Below, piece after piece: positions 4,824 to 53,320 of a stretch of 53,320 bases of DNA (within the stretch, counting starts at the first letter, position 1; each line of letters opens with the position of its first letter). Location: positions 1 to 53,320 of the forward strand of contig JAWUVV010000052.1 of assembly GCA_034112165.1 (NCBI GenBank), read 5' to 3'. This DNA comes from Candidatus Altimarinota bacterium. GTDB lineage: Bacteria; Patescibacteriota; Gracilibacteria; BD1-5; UBA6164. Below the pieces are notes generated by a model. It saw only the letters and a program-made list of their open reading frames with translations, did no database searches and was not told where the DNA came from. A program made the position numbers and the translations under genes.

Positions 4824-5040
4824 AAGTTTTACGAGTTACAAAATAAAATCAATGCGTCTGAACAATGAACGGTTAAAGCCTTAACCCGTAGTCGTAATGC
4901 GCACAACTAGGGAGTTTAATATTCAACCTACCTATAAGGGTAAAACACTAAACTCCCTACTCGTGGCTGTATACAGCTGCGAATGGGGCCTTAAAAAGCT
5001 CGGGTCATATTAAGGACCAAAAATACGTAGCAAATAATAT
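4824..5040 (-). promoter_or_regulatory. Long structured leader (or separate small RNA) upstream of the surface-protein gene
   Basis: GC-richer than its surroundings. Stems seen: GGGAGTTTA...TAAACTCCC (9 bp), ACGGGTTAA.GGC.TTAACCGT, and the GCTGTATACAGC palindrome. I recognised no ORF. Confidence 0.35.
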
Positions 5041-5084
5041 ACTATTTCTCTCTGAGTGCAAACTCTCAGTGCCTCATTTCACTG

Positions 5085-5136
5085 ATTCTTCACACAAATC
5101 ACGTGTTCTTCAGATTTCTTCACACAAAAATACGTG
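5085..5136. promoter_or_regulatory. Two tandem ~21-bp direct repeats TTCTTCACACAAA(N)ACGTG
   Basis: The copies at 5085-5105 and 5115-5136 are near-identical. They lie upstream of the surface-protein leader, so this is a candidate operator or UP site. Confidence 0.35.
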
Positions 5137-5143
5137 AAAAGAC

Positions 5144-5191
5144 CGATAATAAAGTAGGGAACGCAGATCTGCGTTCCCTACTTTATTATCG
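5144..5191. terminator. 48-nt perfect palindrome (24-bp arms, AGATCT centre) downstream of pilC
   Basis: CGATAATAAAGTAGGGAACGCAGA|TCTGCGTTCCCTACTTTATTATCG was checked base by base. The arm GTTCCCTACTTTA is repeated once more directly at 5191-5204, followed by CCGGTCTC. Confidence 0.6.
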
Positions 5192-5226
5192 TTCCCTACT
5201 TTAATTACCGGTCTCAGTTTTTAAGC

Positions 5227-6405
5227 TTAACTTTGAGAAACAGTATCAGCCAAGTTCATAATAGGCTGCATGATGGCAATTGCGATAAATCATACAACGA
5301 CCGCTAGAAAGACTATAATAAATGGTTCTAAAAGCTTATTAATCGTTGCTGCCATATTGTCTACCTGTTCATCGTAGAAGTCAGCAACCTTAATAATAAC
5401 AGTGTCTAACTTGGCTGACTGTTCTCATACCTGAATCATCTGCACCATAATGTCTGGAAAAAGGGGGTCTCACTCCAAAGATTCCCACATTTTCATACCC
5501 TGACGAACATCTTCAAGTAGCAGTAAGATTCTTTGCCTGTACACCTCGTTTCACACCGCGTCAGAAACTATCTTGAGTGATTCAACTACTGATACTCATG
5601 ATCACATAAGTCCTGAGAAAACTCGAGAAAACTTTGATAATACAACCTTTTGAGTAATAGCGCCGAAAATTGGGATTTTTAATATCAATTTATCAAAATT
5701 ATATTTTCAAGTTGGGGTATTCTTCCAAAGTAATATAGAAACATACCCAGCAATGACTGTGAATATCATAAGATACCAATAGTTCACAAAAATATCCGAC
5801 ATAAATATAAGAGCCTTTGTAGTACTTGGGAGAGCCGATTTATCTTCGAATATTTCCAAGAGGTTTGGTACGACTACTATCATCATCACTGCAATAACCC
5901 CAACAACAACTAACATAATCATCGCTGGATAGATAAGCGCTGATTTCATCTTTCATGAAACAGATGCCATTTTTTCTACTTGATCAGCCAATCACGTTAA
6001 TACTTCATTGAGTTTTCAGGTTTTTTCACCAGCTCTAATAACTCCAATTTCTGACTCTATAAATGAATTTGGGTACCTATCCATACATTCAGATAGGTTC
6101 TTTCACTCCTTTAATGAGACCAGCATTTCTCATAGTATTTTTTTAAATGCGACGTTTTTTTCTTGTTTTTCTAGCACAGCAATTCACTTTATAAGAGACA
6201 TACCTGCGTTGAGCATAGTAGACATAAGTCTATAAAAAATGATTTTTTCCCGTACCTTTATTTTTTGAAACCCTGCAAATATATCATTGAGACGCCCCAT
6301 AAAATCCTTTTTCTCTTCAGATTTTTTACCGCTATTTAATAGAGCGTCATCAGAGACAATTCCCGTCTTTCCCTCCTCTTCTCATAATATAATTATATCC
6401 TCCAT
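5227..6405 (-). CDS. pilC: Type IV pilus / T2SS platform protein (GspF/PilC family), 392 aa
   Basis: Code-25 translation gives two T2SSF-type repeats. The typical C-terminus is LLEPFIIVFLAVVV[TGA=G]FIAIAIMQPIMNL. There are 3 TM segments and about 13 in-frame TGA. Confidence 0.9.
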
Positions 6406-6425
6406 AATAATGGTTTACTACTAAA

Positions 6426-7697
6426 TTACTCCTCGTTTTGTGTTTTAGAAACTCTGTACACCTCCTCAAGAGTGGTTTGTCATTGCAGGGCTTTTATAAT
6501 ACCGTCTTGCTCTAAGGAAATCATTCCATCCTTAATTGCTTGCCTGTTGATATTAAATGCTGAATCACCTCTTAGAATCATATCTTTTACTCAAGGGCTA
6601 ATTTCTAGCATCTCATACATACCTACTCGACCTTTATATCCATTTCATTGACACACATCACATCAAACTGCTTTGTAAAACATTGGTGATTTCATTTTTT
6701 CTGCTCCAACCCTATCAAGCAACTCTTCTTTCGGAGTAACAGATAATGCGTGCTTTATATTCTGAAGTGTCGTCTTATCTATTTCACTCAGTGGTCTTAC
6801 TACTTTACATTCATCACATACTCGTTTCACAAGTCTCTGAGCAATAATAATATTAAGTGACGCTGGAATCAGAAATGGTTGTACTCACATATTTAGTATC
6901 CTCGTAATGGTTTCAGCTGCATTATTTGTATGGATGGTCGACAGCACTAAATGTCATGTCAAAGATGCTTCGATGGCTATATCTACGGTTTCTTTATCAC
7001 GCATCTCTCATACCATAATAATATCTGGATCTTGTCGCAGCGCGGTTCTTAGTCCATTTGCAAAGGTATATCAAATACCAGGCTTTACTTGACTCTGACT
7101 AATACCGTCTACTTGATTCTCGACAGGATCTTCCAGCGTCATGATATTAACGTCAGGAGCATTGAGCATGGTAAGTATAGAATAGAGGGTTGTTGATTTA
7201 CCAGAACCAGTAGGTCAGCTCGTGAGAATAACTCCATTAGGAAGGCCGATTGCCTTTTCTAAAAGTCTTTTATTTTTTCACTCTATTCCAAGCATTCATA
7301 GCTCAGGAATCTTTTTACTTTTATCTACGATACGCATAACTATCTTCTCTCAATGAACCGTTGGTAGGGTAGAGACGCGGAGATCTAATGGCTTTCAAAG
7401 TATCGTTTGAGAAATACGTCCATCTTGAGGGACTCTAGATTCATCAATTTTTAGTTCTGAAAGTATTTTAAATCTTGCAATAATACCAGAATGAAGAAAG
7501 GATTGATACTCTAATATTTCCTTTAGTTCCCCATCAACTCTATATCGCAGTCTTACAAAGGAACTCAGAGGTTCAACGTGTATATCTGATGCGTCTCATA
7601 GCACTGCGGCAAGAATAATCATATCACAGATCTTCTGTATATTGTCTCACTTATAGACCAGGGTTTTTAACTCTTCTAGTATTGATGTGTAATCCAT
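6426..7697 (-). CDS. pilB: PilB/GspE-family assembly ATPase, short form (423 aa)
   Basis: Supporting motifs:
- Walker A LTS[TGA=G]PTGSGKST;
- the VHGEKIVMRI and [15 protein letters not shown] boxes;
- the tetracysteine motif CDEC...CDVCQG typical of PilB/GspE rather than PilT.
The long N-terminal GSPII domain is absent. Confidence 0.9.
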
Positions 7698-7700
7698 ATT

Positions 7701-9005
7701 TTATTTTATAAGTATTTTCATCTGCTGCTCATAGGCTTTATTAATTTTTTCTAACTGCTTATTGTACTGCGTAGCACTATCAAAAGTCTCCTCAATCTTA
7801 TCACCTTTAGCGCTTTCTTTTCGTAAAGTAGTAATATCTTTCTCTAGGGCTAAAACGAGTGTTTCCAGGTTTTGCAAAGTTTGTATAGCAGTCAGCTCTA
7901 TTGAATTTGAGTACTTATACCTTTGGCTTAGGAACTTTTGAGTGTTGCTTTGTAATAATGCTGAGAAACTTGTATATTTTTCAAGTAACTTATTAATATA
8001 TGCTTGCATTTTATATCCAGGAACTCCCGCTACATAAAACTGCAACTCAACATCCATTTCGTACTTTTCTTTTCATTGCAAAGTTTTCATTGCAAATATA
8101 AGGGAATCCGTTGTTTTTACCGATGAATTAGGGTATTCATTCAGACTCAAGGATACAATATCTGCCAGCTGATTCTCATATATATTATAATCTCAAGAAC
8201 TTTCTGATCATTCAATACGTTTACTTATGAAATTATCATTTGGAACTACAAATCACTCATCAGATATTGTAATTTGCGCAACATTTTCAAAATAATGGAG
8301 AAAGTCTACCATGTCTGATTTTCTTCAAACAAGACTAAATGAAAGTGGAATAGCGAAAATATTTTCTTCAAGTAGATCAGCTGGTCATGAAGTATTGTCT
8401 ATTTCTTCTTTGTCTACATTAATAATATCTCAAACTCAGATATCTCCCTCATAACTCAGGTTAAAACTATAGAGGAGATTCTCTATATAATTAATAAAGT
8501 AAAAGTCTGTGAGCGTACTATTTTCACTATTTTTATCTTCTTCACTCACTTCATCTCAGAATATCGTATCTCCTGATGAATTGTTTCAGTTATAAGTAGG
8601 AAGAAAGACATTTAAATTCTTATCTTTTTCTAGAAATTCCTCAGATTTTTTTATGTTTGATATATCTTCCCTCACGCTATCAAGAAATGCAATATATTGA
8701 ATAGATCCAGTATTAGTAAAGTGTGCCTCGTAAAAATCCTCAGTAACATTTTTTAACAACACCCTTGTATAATCAGTCTCATCTCAAGAAAAGAAATAAT
8801 CCTTCACCTCACTATACGCTAATCATTGTATAAGAGTCGTATTATACTTATCATATATCCTTCATAGCTCTTGTTTTTTGATTTCTATTTCGCTCATCTT
8901 AGGATATGCAAATATAGCAAATACTCATAAAAGTATGAGGAAAAAAATTCCACTAAATATTACAGATTGTATGATTCATTTTTTTATTCTTTTTGTAAGT
9001 TTCAT
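7701..9005 (-). CDS. Hypothetical membrane-anchored protein (434 aa) in the pilus operon
   Basis: ATG at 9005. N-terminal TM helix (IIQSVIFSGIFFLILL) and a C-terminal coiled coil. Its stop lies 3 nt before the pilB ATG. The reading is continuous only with TGA = Gly. Confidence 0.6.
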
Positions 9006-9011
9006 GTTTTT

Positions 9012-9872
9012 TTAGTTAATTTCAAGAGAGGTCTGCGCGCTGTAACGTAGGCTAAATTCAAAAGACGTTTTACGAGTATAAGGTCAAGACTGAAAGGTCT
9101 CAGAGCTATAAAATTCAGGTTTCTCTATAATAGTAAATGGGGTCAACGAGTACTTTTCTAGGAAATTCAAAAAACTACTTGCTTTAGATATTGATGTTCC
9201 GCCTCAGCGCACTGTTTGTAGGAGTGTATTTTCAACTCTTAAAATATCCGTATTCCAATCAGAAGAGAAACTATCACAGCTCATTGAGATAATATCTTCT
9301 ATGATAAGAATGTCATAACAGGTAATTTCAGATTTATCTGTAGACGAAAATAAATCTTTCATCTTATCAAACTCACTTAATATTTCCAAAGGCTTAAGGC
9401 GTGTTTTTCATTTATTTAGTAAAAAATCTACCTTTTTAGAAAGATTGTAATTCTCTAAACTATATGTATCCCCTAATAGAGGAAGAATCAACTTGCTCTG
9501 TTCAAGTCATATTTTATCTAGTTTGCTCGTATATTCTTGCAGAGAAGGTGTAACTCAATAACAAGTACCTGGATATATCGTCTCACTTCCTAAAAATAGG
9601 GAACAAATAGGATTCAGAAAACTATACTCTGTTTTTTCCTTATTATTTTGAATATAAATATATCAGAAACATGAGATGACAAGTAGAAAAAGCACTATAT
9701 TAATACTAAGAAGAAAAGAACTTATCTTTTTCATATAATAATAAACATCTTTTTCATTGTTTTTATCATTTTTTTCTAATTCTGTTTTTATGTCTTGGGA
9801 ATCAGTAAATTCGTCAAAAATATTCTCTGAATTTATATCGACATTACTTTCCACTGAACTGTCTCACGGCAT
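9012..9872 (-). CDS. Hypothetical single-pass membrane protein (286 aa)
   Basis: ATG at 9872 is the only ATG after an upstream TAG. Acidic N-terminus followed by a TM helix (ISSFLLSINIVLFLLVISCF). Its stop lies 6 nt before the next gene. Confidence 0.55.
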
Positions 9873-22038: not shown

Positions 22039-23403
22039 CTAAAAATTTATAGTAGAAAATATAAAGATAAAGCTAAAAATTACAATATTTATCCCGAGGA
22101 GAAATAAATTTTTAGAAGCTGAAAAGATAAAAAACACAAAAATCATAAACAAAATCCCTATAATTGCGGAAGCATTGATGGTATTTTCGATACGTCATAT
22201 TTTTTCTGCAAATAGTACACTAAAAAATATAATAGAGTATGACACAATACAAAATAATAATATCTTAGAAAGAAAATCTAACGTTGAAAAGAAGGCTTCT
22301 ATTCATTTACTATAGCCTTTTTTTAATCAAGTATATGATCCTATTCATCAACTTTTTTTTGCTTTTAGGATCGATATATTTTGTTTTATTACTTTTCTCT
22401 TGAGAAGTATTTTTTCTTTTATTTCAGACTTTGAAAAAGGATTACAAAATAAAATAATATTTTTTTGAACTTCACGACTATTCTCTTTTAATTTTTCTTT
22501 ATATTTTTCAAGTAATAAGATGGTCTTTAAAAAACTATATGACTTTGTGTCAATAAGTTCTTTTTTTTCTTTTTTTTCTTTAAGGTCTTTCTTCATCTGA
22601 TCGAGAGAAAGTTTTCAAATAGTTCCTCTAAAAAACTTTAATATTTTTTTCTTTATATCCTTATCTTCTTCTATAAATTGGCTACTTGATCATATTTTTT
22701 TTAGAAGTTTATTGGTTTGTGATACGAGATCTCGAGACTCTTTATTTTTATTTTCTTCTAGAGCAGCTAATTCTATTTGTCATATTTTAATAAGGGCCAA
22801 TTCTCCTATTTCTTTGAGTTTTACTATATTAGTTGAGGATTTGATATGAATAAGTTTTTCATACACTGTCTCAAGCTTAAGAAGTGTTTCATCTGTAATA
22901 TTAAATAATTTTTTATTATTAAATATGTTATCAAATTTCCCTATAGCGCTATTAATAAGTATATAGGTTTCATCTAATTTCTTTTTCATATAAAAGCTTT
23001 CTTCTGCTTTTGCTTTTTCTTGGATTATTTTTACCTGTTTTTTTTGAAGTTCATATCAGTTTTGTAATTCTAATATTATTTCTTGTTTTTTCTTAGCATC
23101 GGTGTGGGCTTGATCTCATTCTGGATATAAAAAAACAATATCATATCAAAGTTCTTCTCTGAGTTTTACATATACTTTAAATATATCTTTTCCAACAATA
23201 ACTCCATTTTTCATTTCTCCGTCTTTTTGAACTTGAAAGATATACTTTTTTCAAACAATTTCAGCTCATGAAAAATCCTCAATAGATAAAATAGAATATC
23301 CATCTTTATGAATTTTTTCTCTTGCGTGAGATTCGGAATCTGCTGAAAGAACTAAGGTATATCTTTTCTGAGATTTTGATGCAACTATTTTATATTTTTG
23401 CAT
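22039..23403 (-). CDS. Hypothetical protein (454 aa): two GspF-N-terminus-like modules, long coiled coil, 3 C-terminal TM helices
   Basis: Joins track ORFs 22780..22989 and 22348..22596 plus their flanks in one frame, checked codon by codon. N-terminus YKIVASKSQKRYTLVLSADSESHAREKIHKDGYSILSIEDF. Confidence 0.6.
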
Positions 23404-23407
23404 TTTT

Positions 23408-23620
23408 TTATACAGGAAGTACTAGATTTTCTAAATTAAGGAATTGATTATTAATAAAATCACAAATAGCTCGCTCATTTCTATGTGTAATTTCAGTACA
23501 TTGAATTTCTCATATTCAAAAATTTTCAGCCTCAGTTATTACTTGTTCATCTTTTAAAATTAATGCATTTAATGCATCTTCTGGGTTTTTTCATACTATT
23601 TCGCTTTGATTTATGCTCAT
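23408..23620 (-). CDS. Small hypothetical protein (70 aa)
   Basis: ATG at 23620; stop lies 4 nt before the next ATG; 3 in-frame TGA. Confidence 0.4.
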
Positions 23621-23643
23621 TATTTTTTCAACTCACATGTTTT

Positions 23644-23955
23644 TTATAAGTTATTTAATAAAAAGGAAAAACTGTTCATTTCTTTCATTTTCTCACTTGC
23701 TTCTTTTTTTCTCATTCATGAAACTACGGCAAAGTCATCTTTTTTGATACTTTCAAGTTCTTTAATCTCTAGTTTTTCTACAAATATAGTAAGATTTTTA
23801 AAAAGAGATTCTAGTTCCTGCTTTCAAAGAATATCAATCGCATCTAAATATAATTTTTTCTGATCATCTGAAACATTCAAAGCTTGTACCATTGTTTTGA
23901 TAAGCTTTTTTTGTTTTGATAAATCTTTCTGTTTTTGTAGAAATGTAAATAACAT
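23644..23955 (-). CDS. Small coiled-coil hypothetical protein (103 aa)
   Basis: First gene after a ~400-bp AT-rich divergent promoter region. ATG at 23955. Confidence 0.45.
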
Positions 23956-24353
23956 AGATTGTTTTATATATATACTAGATATAAAATAACATATATTTTA
24001 ATATTTATCAAAAATAGAGGGAGTTTTATATATTTATTTTTTAACATCGCGTCTCTATCTATAGTAATATATATTAAATTAAAAGAATAGTAGTAATAGT
24101 AATAGCCATTGTTAAAAAATATGAAGCCATTAAATAGCTATTTTCTAAAAGTATTTATTCACAATATGAATATGTAATTATCTTAAAATTAAGACAGAGC
24201 TAAGGTTTAGATGTAAGTTTTATACAGTTTTTTAACATATGTTTTAAAACGAGTTTTATTTGCTTTTAATGCATAAAACGTAAAATAAAAAATGTGAAAC
24301 ATATAAATATATATATGAGTCATAAATTAAATTTGTAATAAAAATGTTAGAAA

Positions 24354-25881: not shown

Positions 25882-27114
25882 ATGATTCAAAATAACGACC
25901 CAATACTTGCTGATATGATAGCGAGAGAAGCAACGCGGCAAGACACAGAAATTGAGCTTATTGCTTCAGAAAACTATGTTTCTAAAGACGTTTTAGAAGC
26001 AAACGGTAGTATTCTTACAAATAAATATTCAGAAGGATATCCTGGAAAAAGATATTATGGAGGGTGTCACATTATAGATGAGGTAGAAAATCTTGCAATA
26101 GAGCGAGCAAAACAGCTGTTTGGAGCAGAACATGTAAATGTACAATCACTCTCAGGTTCACCAGCTAATATGGCTGTATATATGGGGCTTTTAAATCCTG
26201 GAGATAAAGTTCTTGGATTCTCTCTCGATCAATGAGGACACTTAACACACGGGCATCCTATGAACTTCTCAGGGATTTTATATGATATTATTCCGTATTT
26301 TCTTGATAAGCAGACTGAAGAAATGGATATGGATGCACTTGAAAAAATAGCGCTCGAAACACAACCTAAAATGATAATCGCAGGGTTTTCAGCCTATTCA
26401 CGTAACTTAGATTGGAAGAGATTCAGAGAGATCGCAGACAAATGTGGAGCGATACTTATGGCAGATATTGCTCATATTGCAGGCCTTATTGCTGCAGGGG
26501 TAATTGAAAATCCAGTTCCAATATGTGACGTTGTAACAACAACAACTCATAAGACGCTCAGAGGTCCAAGATGAGGGATGATTATGTGTAAGAAAAAATA
26601 TGCAAAAGCTATAGATAGAGCAGTTTTTCCAGGACTGCAAGGATGACCACATGAAAATCTTATTGCTGCAAAAGCTGTTGCTTTTTGAGAAGCCCTTAAA
26701 CCAGAGTTCAAAGACTATCAGGTGCAAGTTATTAAAAATGCTCAAACACTTGCTACGAGCTTACAAGAAAAATGATTTAAAATAGTTTCAGGAGGAACAG
26801 ATAATCATCTCATGCTGGTAGATACTTTTATAAGTTATGGGGTAACTGGAAAAGATGCTGAGCATGCTCTAGAAGTAGTAGGACTCTCTGTAAATAAAAA
26901 TATGGTTCCATATGATACTCGCCCTCCTATGAATCCATCATGAATACGTGTTGGAACACCCGCAGCAACTACGAGAGGTATGTGAATTGAACAAATGAAA
27001 GAAATTGCAGATATATTTTCTCTGACAGTTCAAAATCATGACAATCAAGAGTTATTAGAAACTCAAAGACAGAGAGTCTTAGAGCTCTGTATAAAATTCC
27101 CAATTTACAAATAG
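25882..27114 (+). CDS. glyA: Serine hydroxymethyltransferase
   Basis: [21 protein letters not shown][TGA]GHLTHG and [12 protein letters not shown][TGA]G. 410 aa. Confidence 0.95.
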
Positions 27115-38564: not shown

Positions 38565-39353
38565 TTGTTTCCATTTATAGAAATCTTTCCTTGAGCAATT
38601 ATTTATACTTTTGGTTTGGCTCTCACAGTATGTTTTTTTCTATTCCTTTGGAACCTGAAGAGACTAGCAAAAAGATTTGCGTATAGTTTTTCATTTTTCA
38701 CCCAAAATATTATTTGGTTTTTTCTATCAACTCTATTCTTCTCAAGACTTTTTTATGTTATTTGAAAGTGGAATGATATGAAGTTTATCAAAGATCCGTT
38801 TCAATTTTTTATAATGAGTGATTTTAATTTTTCACTTTTTTGAGCTATATTTTGATTTTTATTAGTACTAAAAGTACTCACAAAAATTGAAAAGAGTAGT
38901 ATAACACGTTATATAGACGGGATAGTATTATCATTCTTATTTATATTAGTCGTTTGATACATTGGAGCATTCTTTTGATGACAAGTATATTGAAGAGAAA
39001 CTATGATGAGTATTGATATACTCTATAGTAATGCTTATACTCCAGTTCCATATCAAGTACCAGTTTTTCCGCTTCCTATAGTGTATACACTCATTAGTTT
39101 TGTGATATTTTCAGCGATGTACATGTTATCTCTCTTCGTTCATATTAGATGATATATTTGATATATTGGGCTTATTCTCTTTGCTGCCATGATAATTATA
39201 TTTGAATCATTTAGTGGAAAACAGGATATACTTTCTGTAGTAAGTGTTTTTAATCTTCCACAAGTATATGCCTTGATTCTTATTGTTTGGGCAGGATATA
39301 ATTTTTCTCAAATATTCATCTGAAAAGAATCTTTATGAAATATCTCAGTGTAG
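38565..39353 (+). CDS. lgt: Prolipoprotein diacylglyceryl transferase-like protein
   Basis: Polytopic protein with an Lgt-like V[TGA]YIGAFF[TGA][TGA]QVY[TGA]RET loop. There is no ATG after the upstream TAA, so TTG at 38565 is assumed as the start. Confidence 0.65.
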
Positions 39354-40837
39354 AAAAATATTCTATTAATACTTTATTTACCTACTTTTTAGTAGGGGTA
39401 TTAGCTTGAATTTGATGATTTAATATTCTTGAAGATATTATATTATCACTCTTAATTATAATGTTCCTATGTATCATAGGAATAACGATCTGTCTACAAT
39501 TTAGACAGATTTTTTGATTACTTATAATGCTGGTCATTGGAGTAATAGTATGAGTGTGATTTTCTTCTTACAAAGGGCAGGAAATGGCTGTAAATATGAC
39601 ACAGTTAGATGTGTATTATGGACTCTATAATTCTTATCAAGGAAAAGTTGTAAAAGTATATAAGAGAAGTGACTACTATGATGAGTATGTGATTAATATA
39701 GACAAGATAGCAGACGAAGTATTTTGACAAGAACTCTTGCATTTACTGAGAGTTCCAAAGAATTTTACTCTAGAACCTAGACAAGTAATTTCTTATCAGT
39801 GAGTGATGTACCCACTTCAAGATTTTGATGGTTTTGCATACAAAAAATTTATGCTATCGCAATGAATTTATTTTTCTACTTCGACAAATACTATTGATCA
39901 TATACGTCATGAGAGAGATAATATGTGATATAAAATGTATGTATTGAGAGAAAAATTATTATGAAATATAGTAGACATTTTTCCTTCCAGGGAGTCTATT
40001 TTCTTATGAGGAATTTTATTCTGAGCAAGAGAGAATATACCGCAAGAATTAAAGGAAGATTTTAATAATTCATGACTGACTCATTTTATTGCCGTTAGTG
40101 GTTTTAATATTACGCTGTGTATTATATTTATGAGTTATATCTTTGCTTTCATGCCTGTTTATATAAGAAGTGTTTTAGTAATAGTAAGTATCGTTATATT
40201 TTCATTATTTGTATGACTCTGAGCTCCCGTTGTTCGAGCTGCCATAATGTGAATACTTGGATATATATTTTTACAGTCATGAAATAGGAGTAATACTTTA
40301 ACTCTCATAGTCTTTACGGCTGTTGTAATGTGCCTTATGTCTCCTCTTTCTTTGAATTATGATGTTAGTATGCATTTGAGCTTTTTAGCTGTCATAGGGA
40401 TTATTTATACCCAAGAAATATTTACAAAGATGTTTTCTTGGCTGCCAAGTACCTTTGCTATTAAGGAAGCATTTGTTTTGACTCTCAGTGCCCTGAGTTT
40501 TTCCCTTCCCGTTATGATGTTCCAGTTTGGACAAATTTCTCTTCTATCCCCACTCGCGAATATTGCTGTAACCTGGACCATACCTCTTGCTATGCTTTGA
40601 TGAGCTCTTACTCTCATTGCAGATTTTATTTCTCCTATTATCTGACAAGGCTTATGATTTCTTACTTGGATACTCCTGCGATATGATATTGCCATGGTCG
40701 AGTACTTTGGAAATATTGAGTGGGCACTTCTAAGAGTTGATTTTTGAGCGTACTCTAATTATTTACAAATACTTTATTTTATAGTACTCACGTATATCTT
40801 AGCCCTCTATCATCTCAAAAAAAAGAATCAGCTTTAG
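39335..40837 (+). CDS. comEC: ComEC/Rec2 DNA-internalisation channel, core only (500 aa)
   Basis: FNNS[TGA=G]LTHFIAVSGFNI and APVVRAAIM motifs with multiple TM segments. No C-terminal metallo-beta-lactamase domain. It overlaps lgt by 19 nt. Confidence 0.8.
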
Positions 40838-46971: not shown

Positions 46972-47015
46972 AGACTGGTCTTACGTACTTGAAATAAGTT
47001 ACGTAAGACCGGTCT
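46972..47015. terminator. Bidirectional terminator between mutL and the pilin operon
   Basis: 16-bp stem AGACTGGTCTTACGTA/TACGTAAGACCGGTCT with one G-T pair. Contains AAGACCGGTCTT. Confidence 0.8.
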
Positions 47016-47027
47016 TAGTGTAGGAAG

Positions 47028-47429
47028 TTATATCTTATATATCCATGGAGCAATTGCGTTGAGTATCACTCATGATAGTAATAGGATAATAAGACCGGTG
47101 AGGGTCTTCACTATTCTATCTTTTGCTCCTGTTTTAAGTCCATCGTTAATACCTGCCATAGAGTAGAGTATACCGTTTATCACTATAAATAATACACTTG
47201 CAAGTGCGGCAATGAGAGTGAAGTATTTTATTATTCCTCAAAATAAGTCCATTACGCTTCAAAAACCTGCTTGAACCTGACAGGTATATATTCCATCACT
47301 ATCCGCACCTCAACAGTTTGCTCAGGGTATGTATTCCGTAACTTGCACTTCTATGTATGCGGCTCAAACTTGCTGAGCTAGGAAGAAATAACTTAGGAGT
47401 ATAATGCTCAGTAGTAATATTTTTTTCAT
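47028..47429 (-). CDS. T4SS pilin-like (TrbC/VirB2-type) protein, one module (133 aa)
   Basis: Signal peptide, a Cys-containing loop, then helix-loop-helix IIKYFTLIAALASVLFIVINGILYSMAGINDGLKTGAKDRIVKTLTGLIILLLSGVIL. Confidence 0.65.
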
Positions 47430-47446
47430 AATTATTTTTTAGTATA

Positions 47447-48343
47447 TTAGAAAGAGGCAAGATCAAGGAGGAAGGTATATCCTGCTAGGAGTATAAGAGT
47501 AGCAAGGAGCGTATTGATAATAATACTTTTTGCTTTCTTGACTCGCTCCTCATCACCATTTGAGGTGATAAGATAGTATGAGGCAAGCACAAGAAAGAAT
47601 ATTGCGACAGGTACTGCAAAGAAGAGAGAAAGATTCACGAGTGATTCAAAGAGATTCACTCCATCATCAATGACTCCTCCAAATGCAAGACGTTTCCACG
47701 CTTCTATTATTCCAACGAATATAAGAGCAAGTATAGTGTAGAGTATCTTGTTTTTTGCTTCTTTCATTTTTTCTTCTTTTCCTCTTGAAGTCATGAGTTG
47801 TATACCAGCAAGTGTTATCATAAACACGGCTCATAGGAAAATCATCATTTCTAAAAAAAAGACGATACTCTCATTCACGGTGAGTCAGAGTTGTACCCAA
47901 TCTACGAATAAGTTTCATGTGGTATCCGTACTTTCATTTTCAAAGACATCAGTACTAATATTTCATCAAACTGTTGTTAAGCCATCTCTTACGAAGACTC
48001 TATATAAGCTCTCAGGTATGTTGATAAATACAAGCGCAACCGCTGCATACCAAATTTGTCTTTTAGCTGATGAGAGTTGTTCTTCATCTGATCACATAGA
48101 CATTATCATCATAGCTCAGGTATATACCATATATATCACCATAATTCACATGAGAATTCTTTTTATAACTCTGAGAATTTCTATTCCTAGAATATTAATA
48201 TTTGATACACTACTTCCTCATCATGCAACATCTAGAGAAACTTTTTCTATTGCTTCTCCTCAAGGAATTACAATAGCAGCATCTACTCCTGATATATAGA
48301 TACATCAAAAAAGAAGGAGGCATGTGAGTATAATTTTTTTCAT
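47447..48343 (-). CDS. Protein with three tandem T4SS pilin-like modules (298 aa)
   Basis: Signal peptide plus three copies of hydrophobic helix - (S/T)xG(D/K)EE..K.AK - hydrophobic helix (e.g. LASYYLITSNGDEERVKKAKSIIINTLLATLILLAGY). Confidence 0.65.
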
Positions 48344-48354
48344 GGGTTTATTTT

Positions 48355-49341
48355 TTATATAATGTTTTCTGGACGCAAGAAGAAAGTAAGAATCAGAAAG
48401 TTGATTGCAAGAACAAAAAGTCCAATAGCAATGTAGATAAGTGCTTGCTTTCATTTCTTAATTTTTTCTTCATCTCAAGCAGAAAGTAGTATTTGCGCTC
48501 AGGCATAGATGATCATAAGGAGCACAATAATTGCTACAAATCCATTCATCCAATTGATAACTCGTATAATGAGTTGAATTCACTCAGACATTTCAGCGGC
48601 ATTAATACATGAGGTTTCTCATCAAATAGAAGCTCATGGTCCACAGTTAATTTTTCCATAAAATGCTTCAACGATAGTTTGAGCAATCTTTACTATAAGA
48701 AAACCAATGAGGGCATAAAAAATTGTCATTTTTCCTGATTTTATTGCTTCTTCATTCCCATTTGCGGTGACGAGTTGGTAAAATGCGAATATAGCAACCG
48801 CGATAAAAAATATTGATGCGAGGGTTTGTATCAGAGCAATCATAGGGAGAACGAGATTTTGTATCAGAGTTGCTCCTAGACTTGCATAGACTCACCTATC
48901 AAAGAGTATTTGCGTAAATACAAAGGCTATTTGCATCACGATAAGTCCTATAGTAATCCAAATGATTCATTTTTTAAAGTTTCCAAGTTCTTCTTCTGTA
49001 TTCCCTGCAAAAATAAGCTTGAGACAAATAATGAGAAAAAATATCGTAGCAATAACATAAAAAATATTTTTTAAATCACGAGCAAAACGAATAAGAGTAT
49101 TGTATATTCCTATTTCTCATCCAGTACTCACACCAATAAATTTACCATCATCAAAGTTATTGAGCTTCGTATTTTTGCTTGCGTTAACAGATTCACTCCC
49201 ATCACTCGCTCCTATTTTTAAATTATCTACATTTTGTCCTGCCTGTACGACTCATATATTTATATGCCCATCCGCGTATAAATTTCACATTCAAAAAAAT
49301 ACACTAGAGATAGCAATGATGAGAAGAATAATATACTTCAT
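48355..49341 (-). CDS. Protein with three tandem T4SS pilin-like modules (328 aa)
   Basis: Signal peptide, then modules ..LIFAGNTEEELGNFKKGIIWITIGL.., ..YQLVTANGNEEAIKSGKMTIFYALIGF.. and ..AQILLSAGDEEKIKKGKQALIYIAIGL... Confidence 0.65.
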
Positions 49342-49526: not shown

Positions 49527-49862
49527 ATGAAAAAGTTTTTAGGATTTATCTTCGTTCGGTTAATCAACCGAACGAAGCAAAAACACCTTGATGCTATGTT
49601 CAGGGTTCTACTTAAGGCAACAGATTTAAATTTTCAAAAATTCCGTGACTTTAATATGATCACCTTTACGGTGAACCCTGGTATGGAAGGCGAGGATTTG
49701 GAACTTCTGGCTTTAGGGTGGTTTTTAACCTATTCATACTCATGTTCAAGAGGGACAGAAACAAAGCTTGCGCGATTAACATCTCGTGCGGACTTTTGTC
49801 CAAAATTTTTATCATTGATTTCAGTGATGCATCAACATCGTCTTTCGTGTATGAATGGATAA
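49527..49862 (+). CDS. Uncertain: 111-codon ORF or structured RNA/DNA site
   Basis: An AAGGAG lies 8 nt before the ATG; most genes here lack such a Shine-Dalgarno sequence. The ORF has no TGA codon and a terminator follows. It is GC-richer than its surroundings, contains a perfect 12-bp hairpin (49549-49576), and its peptide is unlike any family I know. Confidence 0.3.
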   Translation: MKKFLGFIFVRLINRTKQKHLDAMFRVLLKATDLNFQKFRDFNMITFTVNPGMEGEDLELLALGWFLTYSYSCSRGTETKLARLTSRADFCPKFLSLISVMHQHRLSCMNG

Positions 49863-49878
49863 TGTTGATTAAATATAG

Positions 49879-49912
49879 AATCAGCCCTAGCTTGGGGCTG
49901 ATTTTGCTTTTT
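49879..49912 (+). terminator. Rho-independent terminator
   Basis: AATCAGCCC/GGGCTGATT stem followed by TTGCTTTTT. Confidence 0.7.
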
Positions 49913-49958: not shown

Positions 49959-50219
49959 ATGGCTGTAATAAGTGTAGAAGTACCAGATAGATTGTCTGTA
50001 GGAATACAAAAAGATACCGTGATAGATTTTGATACACTTGAGGAAATGATGAGCATTATTGCTAGAGATGAAAAATTAGAATGATTTGATGATCCAGAAT
50101 TTATGTCTTTCTTAGAAAAATCTATAGAAAAAGGGAGAGCTAATATCCGTGAAGGAAGGTATCAAGTATATGATGATACATTAAAATCGAATCTTATCAC
50201 TCGACTCTTTGATAAATAA
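49959..50219 (+). CDS. Putative antitoxin (86 aa)
   Basis: Small acidic ORF that ends 3 nt before the ParE/RelE-like toxin gene. One TGA. Confidence 0.5.
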
Positions 50220-50222
50220 TAT

Positions 50223-50519
50223 ATGAAAAAGTATGTTATTAAAATATCAGAGTTTGCGCTGCAAAATATGGATAAAATTTTAGATTTTATTTTTCTGGAT
50301 TCTTCTGACAATGCTATTACATTTGCTCTATGACTCTCAAAGAAAATTCAATCCTTAGAATATTTTCCAAATTCAGGGAAAAGATTTCCATATAGTGTAA
50401 GGGCTAAAATTTATAAATCACATTATATTATCTATGAAATAGACGAGCCTCACGGAGTTGTCGAGATTACAACGGTTGTAAGTTGCAGAAACTATAAAGC
50501 GTATAAAAAATACCTGTAG
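50223..50519 (+). CDS. ParE/RelE-family toxin (98 aa)
   Basis: The pattern I.IS..A..(N/D)(M/L)..I..(F/Y)I......A..F...L......L..FP..G.......R......Y.I.Y.I.......V.I is typical of plasmid-stabilisation ParE toxins. Confidence 0.65.
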
Positions 50520-50537: not shown

Positions 50538-53192
50538 TTAGTCATTATTCATAATTCAAAGCCTTGCCTCTATTTCAATATCTACGTATTTCTTTTTACG
50601 TCCATATTTCTTTCGAGAATATTCTTTTATAATTGCTGCGGCTTTAAGGTTTTTGTAACTATTATCCCATATAGTTTTCATATCAAAGGGGCGAGTTGTG
50701 GAGTTATCAATGTTGAGTTTGAGATAGGTCGTATAATTGGCTACTCAGATGATATCCTGCTGTGATAAAAGAGGGGCATATTCCTTTTCCATATACTCAG
50801 CATCATCAGCACCAACTTTAAATGATTGGATGGTTCCGGCATTACCAAATACGGCATCTTTAATAGAGGGTTTATCTCATTTTCCAGAATTTCCTCAAAT
50901 TTGCGCGATAAACTGATGAGCCATGATGAGAGCAAGTTTATATTTACGAGCCTCAGAAAGTATTTCTCCAAAGGTCTCTGTTGCAAAGTTTTGGAACTCA
51001 TCAACGTACATATAAAATTCTTTCCGCTCATCTTCTGGTATATCTGCTCTACTCATCGCTGCCATATTTATTTTTGATACGAATATCAAACCAAGCAGCT
51101 GCGCATTAAGAGCTCCTATTTTACCTTTCGAGAGGTTAACAAGAAGTATTTTCCTGTTATCCATAACGTCACGCAGGTTAAAGGCTGATTTTGGCTGACC
51201 TATTATATTACGAATCGTAGAATTAGTAATAAATGGACCAAATTTTGCAGAGAAATATGGTATCATTTCTTGTTTTTCTCTATCACCCGTATTTGCATAT
51301 TCGTGTTCCCAAAATGATTTCACGACAGGGTTTTTGAGATTTCGAGTTTTATATTTCATAAACGCTTCATCAACAAAGAGTCTTGGTACATCTATAAGCG
51401 TTCCTCCATCTTCGACATCTTCCATCAGAGTGAGACATCCATTACGGAAGTAATGCTGGATACGTGGACCAAATATTTCATCTCCAAATATTTTAATAAA
51501 TATTTCCGTAGCATCCATAGCAGCTCTATCCATTTCACGTTTTCTAATATCAGGATCAGTAGCGATAATATCCAGCATATTAAGTCCCATTGGCCTGTCT
51601 GTATCAGAAGGATCAAAGATAATAACGTCCTTCGCTCGCTCTTTTGGTACAAAGGCAAGTACATCCTCAACGAGATCTCCATGTGGGTCTATGACACATA
51701 TACCATCTCCGTTCCAAACGTCCTGACGAGCTAGGTATCCAATATACACTGATTTACCTCAACCAGATTTTCAGATAATATATTGATGACGACCACGGTC
51801 TTTTCTATCAAAATATATGGGAGTCTTTTTATTTCTATACTCATTCCATCCAAGGAGTACAGCATCTTTGTAAACGGGAAAACCTCATAGATGTCTATGA
51901 ACTTGCTCCATTTCTCACGTTGTAGTGTTTTTTTCCTCAAGCATAGTTGGGTTGCTTGGGTATTTGAGATTATGTGGAACGGGAAGTTTTTTATATTCGA
52001 GCCAATTTATAATAGGGGATTTATTATATGTAATATCTGGCATATGATAGAGAGTCGACGCTTCATCTGCTGAAAATACAGATTTATTTTGAAAGAATCC
52101 TACGAGTTTATGCCGAAAGGCAAAATGACGAATAGGAGTAAATATCCAAGGAAGAGAGTCTTCATAGAGTTGAGGATTATCAAGAGCATTATTATACTCA
52201 TCAGTAAATATACTGGCAGCAGCTACAATAGCATGAACGGCATTTTCAGCTTGCCTATGAGTTTTAGAGGCAACGATAATACGTATTGACGTTTCAAAAC
52301 CTGGTTGCGCTGCTGACTCACCCATAACTTTCTGACTTTCTGTTTCTGCCTGGTTGAATATCTTATATGCATCTCACTCACTTGCTCCGGGAGCACTGTT
52401 TCATCCTACCATATCTTCTGGTCATTCTACGAGTGCCATTATTGGGTTAAAGAGCCAACTTAGAGGACGAGAAATAATTGAAAGGAGTCCAAATTTTCTA
52501 TTCTTTTTATATTTTCACTTTGCTACCATGCCGGCTGCTTTCATAGCTTTTTGATTCCACTTTGAACTGATGGGCTTAATAACTACTTGGTACACGGCTT
52601 TATCATTTTTATCAAGCCCACCAAATACATTGGTGAAGTTGTTTATTGGATCATCCTCAAGATATTTAAACGTTTTAATAGGAAAGTAATCATCATGTTC
52701 TTTTCCAAGAGAGGCTGCGCGCATTTTATATCATGGTTGACTCAGATTAATATAATCTTTTTTTTCAACGCGGAGTATTTCAGCATCATTATAAATAGAG
52801 GTGATATGCTGTGATACGAGATTTACATAATTTTCATAGGTCACAATAAAAAATGTTACCTCTCCTCTTTCGTATACTAACTCGAGAGATACTTTTGAAT
52901 GCCCAAACACGAAGTTGAGAAGAGTATCACGAAGACCTGCTTCAGCCAGCTTATGTATTGCCTTATAAAACATCGACATTTGACCAATTTTTTCCTTGAA
53001 ATCCTTTTTAGTTTCCCTTTCTTTATCCAGCTTTGAATCCGCTCTTGGGAGTGTGATCTGTAGGTATCTTAAATTCTTTGAGTAATAGAGCTCAAACATA
53101 AGTCTGAGGGTCTTCCATATAATAAATAGTACTATTAATAGAGCTCAGACTTTGATAATCACGTCAAGGAGACTATCAAAAGTCCCTCACAT
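50538..53192 (-). CDS. VirD4/TraD-like type IV secretion coupling ATPase (at least 884 aa; 5' limit uncertain)
   Basis: Four track ORFs join in one frame through TGA codons.
- Walker A: [TGA]KS[TGA][TGA]GKS.
- Walker B: FYMYVDEFQNF.
- C-terminal part: VFGNAGTIQSFKVGADDAEY.
- N-terminal TM helix: VIIKVGALLIVLFIIW.
The ORF has no stop up to the window edge. ATG at 53192 is the most upstream Met. Confidence 0.8.
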
Positions 53193-53320
53193 AGAGTCTC
53201 ACAGTCAACTAAAAAATCATCCAGATGATTCTCACTCCTCTGCCTTATTTCAGCTAGACCCTGGAGTTTGTTGGATAGCTCTCCCCAGCGCTGCAGATGC
53301 TGAGCTATGGAACGCGAGTA

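What the first reader, a model, noticed from the sequence alone, without database searches (positions are those of the whole stretch)
47028..49341. Seven T4SS-pilin-like modules packed into three genes (1 + 3 + 3), with triplicated pilins fused in single polypeptides
All three minus-strand genes start with a signal peptide and contain copies of the same ~55-aa unit. The unit is hydrophobic helix - (S/T/A)xG(D/N/K)EE..(K)..K - hydrophobic helix, for example:
- YYLITSNGDEERVKKAKSIIINTLLATLILL
- YQLVTANGNEEAIKSGKMTIFYALIGFLIV
- AQILLSAGDEEKIKKGKQALIYIAIGLFVL

This is the helix-loop-helix signature of TrbC/VirB2-type (Gram-positive/CPR 'T4SS pilin') proteins. Those are normally ~100-aa single-module proteins. 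Covalently triplicated pilin modules, in two paralogous genes next to a single-module gene, suggest an unusual fibre or channel subunit architecture.
Basis: partly seen in the sequence, partly recalled or inferred. Interest (0 to 1): 0.72.

Follow-up and report, generated by a model that had tools for sequence, protein, structure and literature searches.

The report
Fused triple pilin genes in Gracilibacteria
Three neighbouring genes of an uncultivated ultrasmall bacterium (Gracilibacteria, which read UGA as glycine) encode seven copies of a secretion-system "pilin" hairpin packed as 3 + 3 + 1; this layout sits beside a VirD4-type motor gene, is conserved across the group, and is a fused version, not described in the papers I could search, of the separate pilin gene arrays already known in related bacteria.

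Summary
The window uses genetic code 25 (UGA = Gly). Read that way, 47028-49341 (minus strand) holds three Sec-signal-bearing genes: g3 (328 aa), g2 (298 aa) and g1 (133 aa). They carry 3, 3 and 1 copies of a ~75-aa helix-loop-helix module. The modules are related far beyond compositional chance and match Pfam T4SS_pilin (PF18895).

What tools added:
- The triple-module protein is a conserved family: 214 database hits, and 115 of the 120 listed have exactly 3 modules.
- In 15 of 15 further species-level loci that have enough flanking sequence (plus two near-duplicate copies), the order is VirD4-like ATPase, 3x, 3x, 1x, mostly 5-79 nt apart.
- Each of the seven module positions is its own conserved clade, so the set is ancient and differentiated.
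- No VirB4, VirB6 or relaxase lies nearby in relatives.
- Other CPR lineages independently built pilins with 4 to 11 modules.

Arrays of separate VirB2-like pilin genes are known and essential in Saccharibacteria; fused modules were not mentioned in the papers I could search. Fold searches were uninformative, and no pilus has been seen.

Verdict: a real feature and a new variant of a known kind. Best reading: a fixed-stoichiometry, heteromeric VirB2-like membrane or filament component working with the adjacent coupling-protein-like ATPase. Interest 0.6.

The parts
48355..49341 (-). g3: 328-aa protein with a signal peptide (about aa 1-23), a variable ~50-aa extracytoplasmic N-region and three T4SS_pilin hairpin modules (about aa 75-150, 151-232, 249-328). 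A conserved Cys pair (C233/C245) lies in the linker between modules b and c.
   Evidence: Code-25 translation. Pfam PF18895, 63.6 bits in 3 stretches. 214 homologues, 115 of 120 listed with 3 modules. An AF2 model of the orthologue P0022 shows 3 helix-turn-helix hairpins, pLDDT 71. Cys conservation.
47447..48343 (-). g2: 298-aa protein with a signal peptide and three T4SS_pilin hairpin modules (about aa 47-118, 149-223, 224-298), with a ~35-aa linker between modules a and b.
   Evidence: 45.9 bits, 3 stretches. Independent g3-only profile gives i-E about 1e-8 per module. An orthologue is present directly after g3 in 15 of 15 further loci that have enough sequence.
47028..47429 (-). g1: 133-aa protein with a signal peptide, a Cys-pair-containing ~30-aa region (C39/C50, motif VTE.IPGA.C...C) and one divergent T4SS_pilin hairpin ending in the conserved APWIY motif.
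   Evidence: 23.5 bits, below the 26.6 cut-off. 10 of 10 orthologues hit PF18895 and 6 exceed the cut-off. Conserved position after g2.
50538..53320 (-). VirD4/TraG-type coupling-protein-like ATPase, cut off by the window edge (orthologues are about 935-960 aa). It has two N-terminal TM segments, a ~400-aa domain annotated DUF8128 in relatives, a Walker A motif (GKSGGGKS) and a Walker B motif (YVDEFQNF). It is the first gene of the conserved cassette.
   Evidence: Pfam T4SS-DNA_transf, 54.4 bits against a cut-off of 20.1. Weak TrwB match in the PDB. ORF continues to the window edge, and orthologue N-termini were examined. Synteny.
46972..47015 (.). 16-bp inverted repeat between the convergent stop codons of g1 and mutL. 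It is a candidate bidirectional terminator closing the cassette.
   Evidence: 94% complementary arms, 12-nt loop.
49959..50519 (+). ParE-type toxin plus a small upstream partner on the opposite strand, inserted between the VirD4-like gene and g3. This is specific to this genome and not part of the conserved cassette.
   Evidence: Pfam ParE_toxin, 34.6 bits. Absent from the closest relative, which has a 423-nt spacer there. In most other genomes the spacer is 16-79 nt.

Best explanation
The locus is the Gracilibacterial form of the Patescibacterial VirB2-like pilin array. It is a chromosomal operon made of a VirD4-type coupling-protein-like ATPase followed by three Sec-exported membrane proteins. 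Together these carry seven ancient, individually conserved pilin hairpins, covalently grouped as 3 + 3 + 1.

Proposed steps:
1. Each polypeptide loses its signal peptide.
2. Every hairpin inserts N-out/C-out. The highly conserved G(D/N)EE..K..K turn faces the cytoplasm, and the variable, disulfide-containing linkers face outside.
3. The hairpins assemble into a heteromeric VirB2-like envelope structure (a channel lining and/or a short filament). This structure works with the adjacent ATPase, and presumably with a VirB4 encoded elsewhere, in the host-dependent lifestyle rather than in conjugation.
4. Fusion fixes the stoichiometry and the neighbour order of the different hairpins.

Shown here: homology, module count, predicted hairpin structure, conservation pattern, synteny. 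Inferred: membrane topology, assembly, the partnership with the ATPase, and the biological role.
For: - Family membership: PF18895 hits in g2 and g3, in all 114 family members scanned, and in all 10 g1 orthologues. Near-threshold hit to the NCBIfam Mycoplasma ICE pilin-like protein (39.6 bits against 40). Sub-threshold TrbC/VirB2 hits.
- Structure: AF2 gives three helix-turn-helix hairpins and a confident single hairpin with pLDDT 85.
- Topology indicators: signal peptides and an even number of TM helices per module. Conserved Cys pairs occur only in the linker and N-terminal regions.
- Conservation: the turns are the most conserved parts (majority-residue frequency 0.74-0.81), while the N-region and the long linker are the least (0.40-0.44).
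- Age: the seven module classes are each monophyletic across 16 genomes.
- Synteny: the order VirD4-like, 3x, 3x, 1x holds in 15 of 15 further loci that have enough flank, with short spacers. The link between a DUF8128-type VirD4-like gene and a multi-module pilin also appears in Peregrinibacteria.
- Array membership: a 6x pilin sits inside an array of single pilin genes in Andersenbacteria.
- Literature: VirB2-like arrays of 2-11 genes occur in Patescibacteria, are essential in S. epibionticum, and relaxases are mostly absent (PMC12102498, PMC12857230).
Against: - No pilus or channel made of PF18895 proteins has been visualised, so the 'pilin' label is itself an annotation.
- Foldseek found no conjugative pilin among the matches to either model. 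The module profile has no sequence relative in the PDB.
- Classical TrbC/VirB2 profile scores stay below the curated cut-off.
- In canonical systems pilin extraction is attributed to VirB4, not VirD4, and no VirB4 or VirB6 lies within 7-10 kb in relatives.
- Extracting a six-helix fused unit from the membrane into a filament has no precedent.
- The hairpin turns are not net positive, so the positive-inside rule does not independently support the proposed topology.
Confidence: 0.55

Rival explanations
1. The fused 6-TM proteins are not extracted as pilins. They stay in the cytoplasmic membrane as a permanent platform or channel on which the adjacent VirD4-like hexamer docks through the conserved cytoplasmic GDEE..K..K turns. 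In effect they replace the VirB6-type polytopic component. The cassette would then be a minimal T4CP-plus-channel translocon built from domesticated pilin hairpins.
For: - Tight, conserved linkage to the T4CP-like gene rather than to VirB4.
- Six TM helices per protein.
- The cytoplasmic turns are the most conserved segments.
- VirB6 homologues are reported as undetectable in Gracilibacteria, and T4CP genes lie far from virB4 and may have been exapted (PMC12102498).
Against: - No sequence similarity to VirB6/TrbL at E <= 1.
- The same hairpin family occurs as ordinary single-module pilin genes in arrays, and g1 is a single module.
- The failure to detect VirB6 may only reflect sequence divergence.
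- No interaction data exist.
Confidence: 0.25
2. g3 and g2 are polyprotein precursors. After membrane insertion each second helix (N-in/C-out, like a signal peptide) is cleaved by signal peptidase. This releases seven separate single-hairpin pilins in fixed 1:1 ratios.
For: The orientation of helix 2 of each hairpin mimics a signal peptide. The window's g3 has a VYA|S motif after module a that resembles its own signal-peptide site LYA|D.
Against: - The motif is not conserved in orthologues, which have ISE, VGE or VNQ at the same place.
- The a-b linker of g3 and the b-c linker of g2 are only about 5-10 residues.
- AF2 models a continuous helix-turn arrangement.
Confidence: 0.07
3. The pilin hits are composition-driven. 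The proteins would be an unrelated polytopic membrane family, for example a transporter, a GtrII-like protein, or a proteolipid-like ring subunit with multiplied hairpins.
For: - Weak hits to Glucos_trans_II (19.4 bits; 14 of 114 members), Oxidored_q3 and an F1-like-ATPase-associated 12-TM family.
- Foldseek lists F-ATPase c-subunits among generic hairpin matches.
Against: - All of those hits fall below the curated cut-offs, whereas PF18895 is well above its cut-off and hits each module separately.
- Module similarity survives composition-preserving shuffles.
- There is no ATP-synt_C hit and no conserved mid-helix carboxylate.
- The conserved neighbour is a T4SS ATPase.
Confidence: 0.05

Closest known systems
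VirB2-like pilin gene arrays of Patescibacteria (for example the essential six-gene array of Southlakia epibionticum ML1; 441 arrays of 2-11 genes in PMC12102498)
   Same: - Same Pfam family (PF18895).
- Several sequence-divergent paralogous hairpins encoded side by side. Identity between different module positions here is 16-25%, against about 25% on average in the published arrays.
- Sec signal peptides.
- Chromosomal location with no relaxase nearby.
- CPR host-dependent bacteria.
   Different: - Six of the seven hairpins here are covalently fused, three to a polypeptide.
- The array is linked to a VirD4-like gene rather than to virB4.
- The 3+3+1 partition is fixed across the group.
- The papers count genes, not modules, and do not mention intragenic multiplication.
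Classical conjugative pilins TrbC/VirB2/TraA (PF04956 and relatives) of Gram-negative T4SS
   Same: A signal peptide, then two hydrophobic helices joined by a short polar turn, with both termini on the outer side. This is established knowledge of the family. Weak profile cross-hits of 20.9-24 bits.
   Different: - Scores fall below the curated cut-off.
- The host is a monoderm.
- No adjacent VirB3, VirB4, VirB5 or VirB6.
- Three modules per chain rather than one.
- The turn carries a conserved acidic DEE motif.
- Fold comparison was uninformative.
Mbov_0395/MMCAP2_0565 pilin-like conjugal transfer protein of Mycoplasma ICEs (NCBIfam NF045849)
   Same: An 80-position hairpin profile matches g3 at 39.6 bits (cut-off 40) and g2 at 30.6 bits. 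It belongs to a monoderm or wall-less T4SS context, consistent with the MPF-FATA ancestry proposed for the Patescibacterial T4SS (PMC12102498).
   Different: It is a single-module protein on a mobile element. Here the scores are just under threshold, the proteins have multiple modules, and the locus is chromosomal with no ICE features.
Multiplied-hairpin proteolipids (c/K subunits) of A- and V-type ATPases, such as the triplicated Methanocaldococcus jannaschii proteolipid (recalled from established literature, not tested here)
   Same: A mechanistic precedent only: a membrane helical hairpin that normally oligomerises is fused two, three or more times in one chain, which fixes the stoichiometry within the assembly.
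   Different: No homology: there is no ATP-synt_C hit, no conserved mid-membrane carboxylate, and the genomic context is different.

Membership tests
Pfam T4SS_pilin (PF18895) | Profile match at or above the curated gathering score (26.6 bits) | tested here: met
   g3 63.6 bits and g2 45.9 bits, 3 stretches each. 114 of 114 g3-family members match. g1 scores 23.5 bits in the window, below the cut-off, but 10 of 10 orthologues match and 6 exceed the cut-off.
Pfam T4SS_pilin (PF18895) | Signal peptide followed by a hairpin of two hydrophobic helices with a short polar turn | tested here: met
   Sequence and hydropathy. AF2 hairpins H47-85/H89-120, H127-166/H171-202 and H228-263/H268-299. Single module with pLDDT 85. 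Signal peptides were judged by eye because no predictor was available.
Pfam T4SS_pilin (PF18895) | Usual architecture: one module per protein of about 100-150 aa | tested here: not met
   g2 and g3 have three modules each. Only g1 has the usual architecture.
Classical TrbC/VirB2 pilin (PF04956) | Profile match at or above the gathering score (27.9 bits) | tested here: not met
   Best score 24.0 bits. 3 of 114 g3-family members and 1 of 10 g1 orthologues give sub-threshold hits.
Classical TrbC/VirB2 pilin (PF04956) | Fold superposes on solved conjugative pilins (TraA, VirB2) | tested here: inconclusive
   Foldseek against the PDB: best E = 0.47 for the full model and 2.0 for the single hairpin. 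Only generic helical hairpins appear and there are no pilins in the top 50. Such a simple fold is poorly discriminated.
Classical TrbC/VirB2 pilin (PF04956) | Encoded next to VirB3, VirB4 and VirB6 mating-pair-formation genes | tested here: not met
   In collinear relatives the flanks are housekeeping genes such as AspRS, DnaE, MscL and MutL. Within the window only the VirD4-like gene is T4SS-related.
Classical TrbC/VirB2 pilin (PF04956) | Polymerises with phospholipid into an extracellular filament | not testable with these tools
   This needs cryo-EM or cryo-ET, or biochemistry.
Patescibacterial VirB2-like pilin array (PMC12102498) | Two or more pilin genes in tandem, with low identity between paralogues | tested here: met
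   Three adjacent genes with 11- and 17-nt spacers. Identity between different module positions is 16-25%. Between-class distances are 0.79-0.98.
Patescibacterial VirB2-like pilin array (PMC12102498) | Located near virB4 (true for 1,135 of 1,948 assemblies in the paper) | tested here: not met
   No VirB4 within the window or within 7-10 kb in relatives. The paper itself notes that T4SS genes are dispersed in Gracilibacteria.
VirD4/TraG type IV coupling protein (neighbouring gene) | T4SS-DNA_transf profile above its cut-off, Walker A and B motifs, and two N-terminal TM segments | tested here: met
   54.4 bits against 20.1. GKSGGGKS and DEFQNF are present in the sequence. Orthologue N-termini show two hydrophobic segments. 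Similarity to TrwB in the PDB is weak (E = 1.3e-4, Walker A region only).
VirB6/TrbL polytopic T4SS component | Profile match to VirB6/TrbL | tested here: not met
   No such hit at E <= 1 for g1, g2 or g3.
ATPase proteolipid (c-subunit) with multiplied hairpins | ATP-synt_C profile match and a conserved mid-helix carboxylate | tested here: not met
   No ATP-synt_C hit. The conserved polar residues lie in the turn, not mid-helix.

The most novel reading that the evidence does not exclude
The conserved four-gene cassette is a self-contained, pilin-derived translocon. The two triple-hairpin proteins and the single hairpin would form a fixed 3+3+1 hetero-oligomeric membrane pore or stub that is never released as a classical pilus. 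It would be gated by the DUF8128-type VirD4-like ATPase docking on the conserved GDEE..K..K cytoplasmic turns, and it would substitute for the VirB6 that cannot be detected in Gracilibacteria. That would make it a previously unrecognised T4SS architecture built by covalent multiplication of VirB2.
Probability: 0.2. Interest if true: 0.85.

Novelty: new variant of a known kind. Interest (0 to 1): 0.6.

Why it matters
In Patescibacteria the T4SS and its VirB2-like pilin array are the only T4SS shown to be essential for the bacterium's own growth on its host. What the pilins build in a single-membrane cell is an open question (PMC12857230).

A lineage in which six of seven hairpins are permanently tethered in a conserved order places strong constraints on any model:
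- Adjacent hairpins must be neighbours in the assembly.
- Their termini must lie on the same, outer side.
- The unit that is inserted or extracted is a six-helix protein.

This gives structural biologists natural "concatemer" constructs for testing subunit order and stoichiometry. It also points to an unexplored functional link between coupling-protein-like ATPases and pilins.

There are two practical lessons. Pilin surveys that count genes underestimate the number of modules. And many public entries of this family are mistranslated, with Trp at UGA.

Tried and rejected
- Table-11 ORF calling was rejected because the genes fragment and the window is code 25.
- The long g2 ORF starting at 48454 was rejected in favour of the start at 48343, which orthologues support.
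- Foldseek against the PDB, with both the full model and the single hairpin, gave no significant or pilin match and was uninformative.
- A PDB sequence search with the module profile found nothing.
- Rfam and tRNA scans of the window found nothing.
- The promoter scan was not above shuffled expectation. Only one candidate lies upstream of g3 (49443-49414).
- I tested whether the 7-module single polypeptides (P0144, P0165) are fused 3+3+1 orthologues. They are not: they consist of near-identical, recently amplified repeats.
- Positional orthology between g2 and g3 modules (a-a, b-b, c-c) was not resolved. Only c-c is marginally the closest pair.
- GtrII, Oxidored_q3 and the 12-TM F1-like-associated family all scored below their cut-offs and were attributed to TM composition.
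- The polyprotein-cleavage idea is weakened because the candidate cleavage motif is not conserved.
- The oriC idea for the skew switch near 24 kb is not supported, as there is no DnaA-box enrichment.
- A taxonomic look-up of ten further 4-6-module proteins returned mostly unnamed metagenome entries.
Full report
**1. Genetic code and gene models**

Under table 11 the region is a patchwork of short ORFs. Treating UGA as a sense codon raises the summed length of ORFs of at least 100 aa in the window from 7,126 to 29,194 aa. The serine hydroxymethyltransferase gene (25882-27114) has seven in-frame UGAs. Six align to Gly in both of the best solved homologues, and the seventh aligns to Gly in one and Asp in the other. 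The window therefore uses code 25 (UGA = Gly). That code, together with the names of the closest database relatives, places it in Candidatus Gracilibacteria.

With code 25 the finding's coordinates resolve exactly into three minus-strand genes:
- g3, 48355-49341, 328 aa.
- g2, 47447-48343, 298 aa. The start at M38 of a longer ORF is the one used by orthologues.
- g1, 47028-47429, 133 aa.

The spacers are 11 and 17 nt. A 16-bp inverted repeat (46972-47015) separates g1 from the convergent mutL gene.

**2. The repeats are real**

Each protein starts with a signal-peptide-like segment (MKK..., a hydrophobic core, then VGA|A, VDA|A or LYA|D). These were judged by eye because no predictor was available. 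After it come one or three units of a long helix, a short polar turn ([ST]xG[DN]EE..K..K) and a second hydrophobic helix.

- Smith-Waterman scores between modules exceed composition-preserving shuffles by z = 3.5-14.4 among the six g2/g3 modules. g1 is the most divergent, with z up to 4.2.
- A profile built only from g3 modules of other species finds each g2 module at i-E about 1e-8, but not g1.
- Pfam T4SS_pilin (PF18895) matches g3 at 63.6 bits and g2 at 45.9 bits, each in three stretches, against a cut-off of 26.6. g1 scores 23.5 bits.
- Ten of ten g1 orthologues hit the family, six of them above the cut-off.
- No other ORF in the window contains a module.

**3. A conserved family and a conserved cassette**

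A search of 5.8 billion proteins with g3 returned 214 hits, many of them full length at 43-77% identity. They are annotated as hypothetical protein, pilin or Type IV secretion system pilin. Of the 120 listed, 115 have exactly three modules, and the five with two look truncated.

Context came from two look-ups and a scan of species-representative genomes. I re-annotated these loci under code 25. Every locus with enough flanking sequence shows the same order and orientation: a VirD4-like ATPase (about 935-960 aa), a 3x pilin (g3 type), a 3x pilin (g2 type) and a 1x pilin (g1 type). That is 15 of 15 further distinct loci plus two near-duplicates of one of them, and the set includes the complete genomes CP042461.1 and CP060226.1.

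Spacers are 16-79 nt between the ATPase gene and g3 in most genomes, and mostly 5-25 nt between the pilin genes. The one exception, L017, is a distant lineage with a lone g3-type gene beside a type IV prepilin-like gene.

In this window a ParE-type toxin and a small partner gene on the opposite strand (49959-50519) have been inserted between the ATPase gene and g3. The closest relative is collinear at 77-82% nucleotide identity and has a 423-nt spacer there instead.

The ATPase gene is cut by the window edge. Its ORF continues to base 53320, and orthologues start about 53 codons further upstream with two hydrophobic segments. It matches Pfam T4SS-DNA_transf at 54.4 bits against a cut-off of 20.1, and it has intact Walker A and B motifs. 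Its only PDB relative is TrwB, weakly. Relatives carry a DUF8128 annotation on the N-terminal half.

**4. What lies beyond the window**

Upstream of the VirD4-like gene are small hypothetical genes, an aspartyl-tRNA synthetase gene, TauE, MscL and a gene for a giant surface protein. In the distant complete genome the upstream genes are AspRS and DnaE. No VirB4, VirB6 or relaxase occurs within 7-10 kb. The cassette is chromosomal, sits among housekeeping genes, and shows no sign of a mobile element.

**5. History of the modules**

I extracted 112 modules from 16 genomes and built a distance tree. Each of the seven positions (g3a, g3b, g3c, g2a, g2b, g2c, g1) is monophyletic. Within-class distances are 0.27-0.43 and between-class distances are 0.79-0.98. 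Profile-profile comparison links most classes at 85-98% probability, with g1 and g3a the most divergent.

The seven hairpins are therefore old, differentiated and individually under purifying selection. They are not recent duplicates. Whether g2 and g3 arose by duplication of an already triplicated gene could not be resolved; only the c-c pair is marginally the closest.

**6. Structure and topology**

- AlphaFold2 gives six long helices forming three helix-turn-helix hairpins. Mean pLDDT is 71 (75-89 over the helices) and pTM is 0.51.
- A single module folds confidently as a hairpin (pLDDT 85).
- Across the family the turns are the most conserved segments (majority-residue frequency 0.74-0.81). 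The N-terminal region and the long b-c linker are the least conserved (0.40-0.44), apart from a nearly invariant Cys pair in that linker.
- g1 has a conserved Cys pair in its pre-hairpin region.

A cleaved signal peptide, an even number of helices per module and Cys pairs confined to the linkers all fit a topology with the linkers outside and the turns in the cytoplasm. This is the orientation known for membrane-embedded VirB2/TraA pilins (established knowledge of those families). It remains an inference: the turns are not net positive, and I had no topology predictor.

**7. Comparison with known families**

- Foldseek against the PDB gave nothing significant for either model. It returned only generic helical hairpins, including ATPase c-subunits, and no conjugative pilins.
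- The module profile has no sequence relative in the PDB.
- The classical TrbC/VirB2 Pfam profile gives only sub-threshold hits, at most 24 bits against 27.9.
- NCBIfam's Mycoplasma ICE pilin-like conjugal transfer protein scores 39.6 bits against a cut-off of 40 for g3.

Membership in PF18895 is therefore solid. Membership in the classical VirB2 family is not demonstrated, and the 'pilin' function remains an annotation-level inference.

The literature describes VirB2-like pilins in 1,948 Patescibacterial assemblies and 441 arrays of 2-11 separate pilin genes with about 25% mutual identity. It also reports that T4CP genes are rarely near virB4, that relaxases are mostly absent, and that VirB6 is undetectable in Gracilibacteria (PMC12102498). 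A six-gene array is essential in Southlakia epibionticum, and whether it forms a pilus is an open question (PMC12857230). None of the passages I retrieved mention several pilin modules within one polypeptide, and full-text searches for such a description found nothing.

**8. How general is covalent multiplication?**

An exhaustive HMMER search of 1.84 billion representative proteins with a single-module profile gave 22,826 hits at E <= 0.001 and 83 at E <= 1e-30. In the top 150, three stretches dominate, but proteins with 4, 5, 6, 7, 8, 9 and 11 stretches also occur.

Of the 144 representatives not already retrieved, 65 are g3-type. The rest have other architectures. Examples are a 641-aa, 7-module protein from Peregrinibacteria (TSD00203.1) and a 527-aa, 6-module protein from Andersenbacteria (PIT98131.1). 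Their repeats are nearly identical to each other, so they are recent and independent amplifications.

The Peregrinibacterial gene lies 3.7 kb from a DUF8128-type VirD4-like gene, with peptidoglycan-binding and DPBB genes between them. The Andersenbacterial gene sits inside an array of six single-module pilin genes. Intragenic multiplication of this hairpin is thus recurrent in the CPR. What sets the Gracilibacterial case apart is that the partition is ancient, differentiated and fixed, and that it is welded to a T4CP-like gene.

**9. Interpretation**

Best explanation (confidence 0.55). This is the Gracilibacterial version of the Patescibacterial pilin array. Fusion fixes the stoichiometry and neighbour order of seven different VirB2-like hairpins. 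These assemble into a heteromeric envelope structure, a channel lining and/or a filament, that works with the adjacent coupling-protein-like ATPase in the host-dependent lifestyle.

Main rival (0.25). The six-helix proteins are never extracted. They form a permanent membrane platform or channel for the ATPase and functionally replace VirB6.

Minor rivals. One is polyprotein processing (0.07), weakened because the candidate cleavage motif is not conserved. The other is a spurious pilin assignment (0.05), contradicted by the per-module profile hits, the shuffle controls and the T4SS neighbour.

**10. Verdict**

It is a new variant of a known kind rather than a new category of system. It is of clear interest to T4SS and CPR specialists because it constrains models of what these essential pilins build. 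Interest 0.6.

Noticed in passing
window 1-53320: The whole window uses genetic code 25 (UGA = Gly). Table-11 tools fragment nearly every gene.
   Followed up: yes
alignment A1/A2 (database homologues of g3): Many public entries of this protein family (Logan, JGI, ENA and some NCBI assemblies) carry Trp where the gene has UGA. They were translated with code 4 rather than 25, so their sequences are wrong at conserved Gly positions.
   Followed up: partly
window 49959-50519 (+): A ParE-type toxin (98 aa) with an 86-aa upstream partner is inserted, on the opposite strand, between the VirD4-like gene and g3. It is absent from the closest relative. A hairpin with a 14-bp stem lies at 49876-49906, and a doubtful 111-aa ORF lies at 49527-49862.
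   Followed up: partly
window 810-9872 (-): A type IV pilus or competence-type cluster: PilC-like (5227-6405), PilB-like ATPase (6426-7697), two unannotated membrane proteins (7701-9872) and a 1337-aa secreted, repeat-rich surface protein (810-4823).
   Followed up: partly
window 38778-40837 (+): An LGT-like gene and a ComEC-like competence channel gene, also present at the corresponding place in the collinear relative L001/L002.
   Followed up: no
window 23400-24350: The GC-skew sign change and a switch from minus-strand to plus-strand genes coincide in a ~950-bp intergenic region of about 21-25% GC. There is no enrichment of DnaA boxes, so an origin of replication is not supported. The skew may simply follow gene orientation, as it flips back near 40 kb.
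   Followed up: partly
window 46972-47015: A 16-bp inverted repeat (94% complementary, 12-nt loop) lies between the convergent stops of g1 and mutL. It is a likely bidirectional terminator.
   Followed up: partly
window 53193-53320 (-): The VirD4-like ORF continues to the window edge. Orthologues begin about 53 codons further upstream with a signal-peptide-like segment and a second TM helix, so the gene is truncated in this window.
   Followed up: yes
L017:6630-9247: A distant Gracilibacterium has a lone g3-type triple pilin with no VirD4-like, g2 or g1 gene adjacent. It is followed two genes later by a type IV prepilin-like gene (GFTLVELLVV motif).
   Followed up: no
L003:16594-17028, L012:16250-16678, L013:13690-14118: An additional single-module T4SS_pilin gene (142-144 aa, no obvious signal peptide, acidic C-terminal tail) lies 4-6 kb downstream of the cassette on the opposite strand in some genomes. 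It is not present in this window.
   Followed up: no
L019:3691-11926: In a Peregrinibacterium the 7-module pilin and a DUF8128-type VirD4-like gene flank genes with peptidoglycan-binding and DPBB (RlpA-like) domains. These are possible cell-wall-remodelling partners analogous to VirB1.
   Followed up: no
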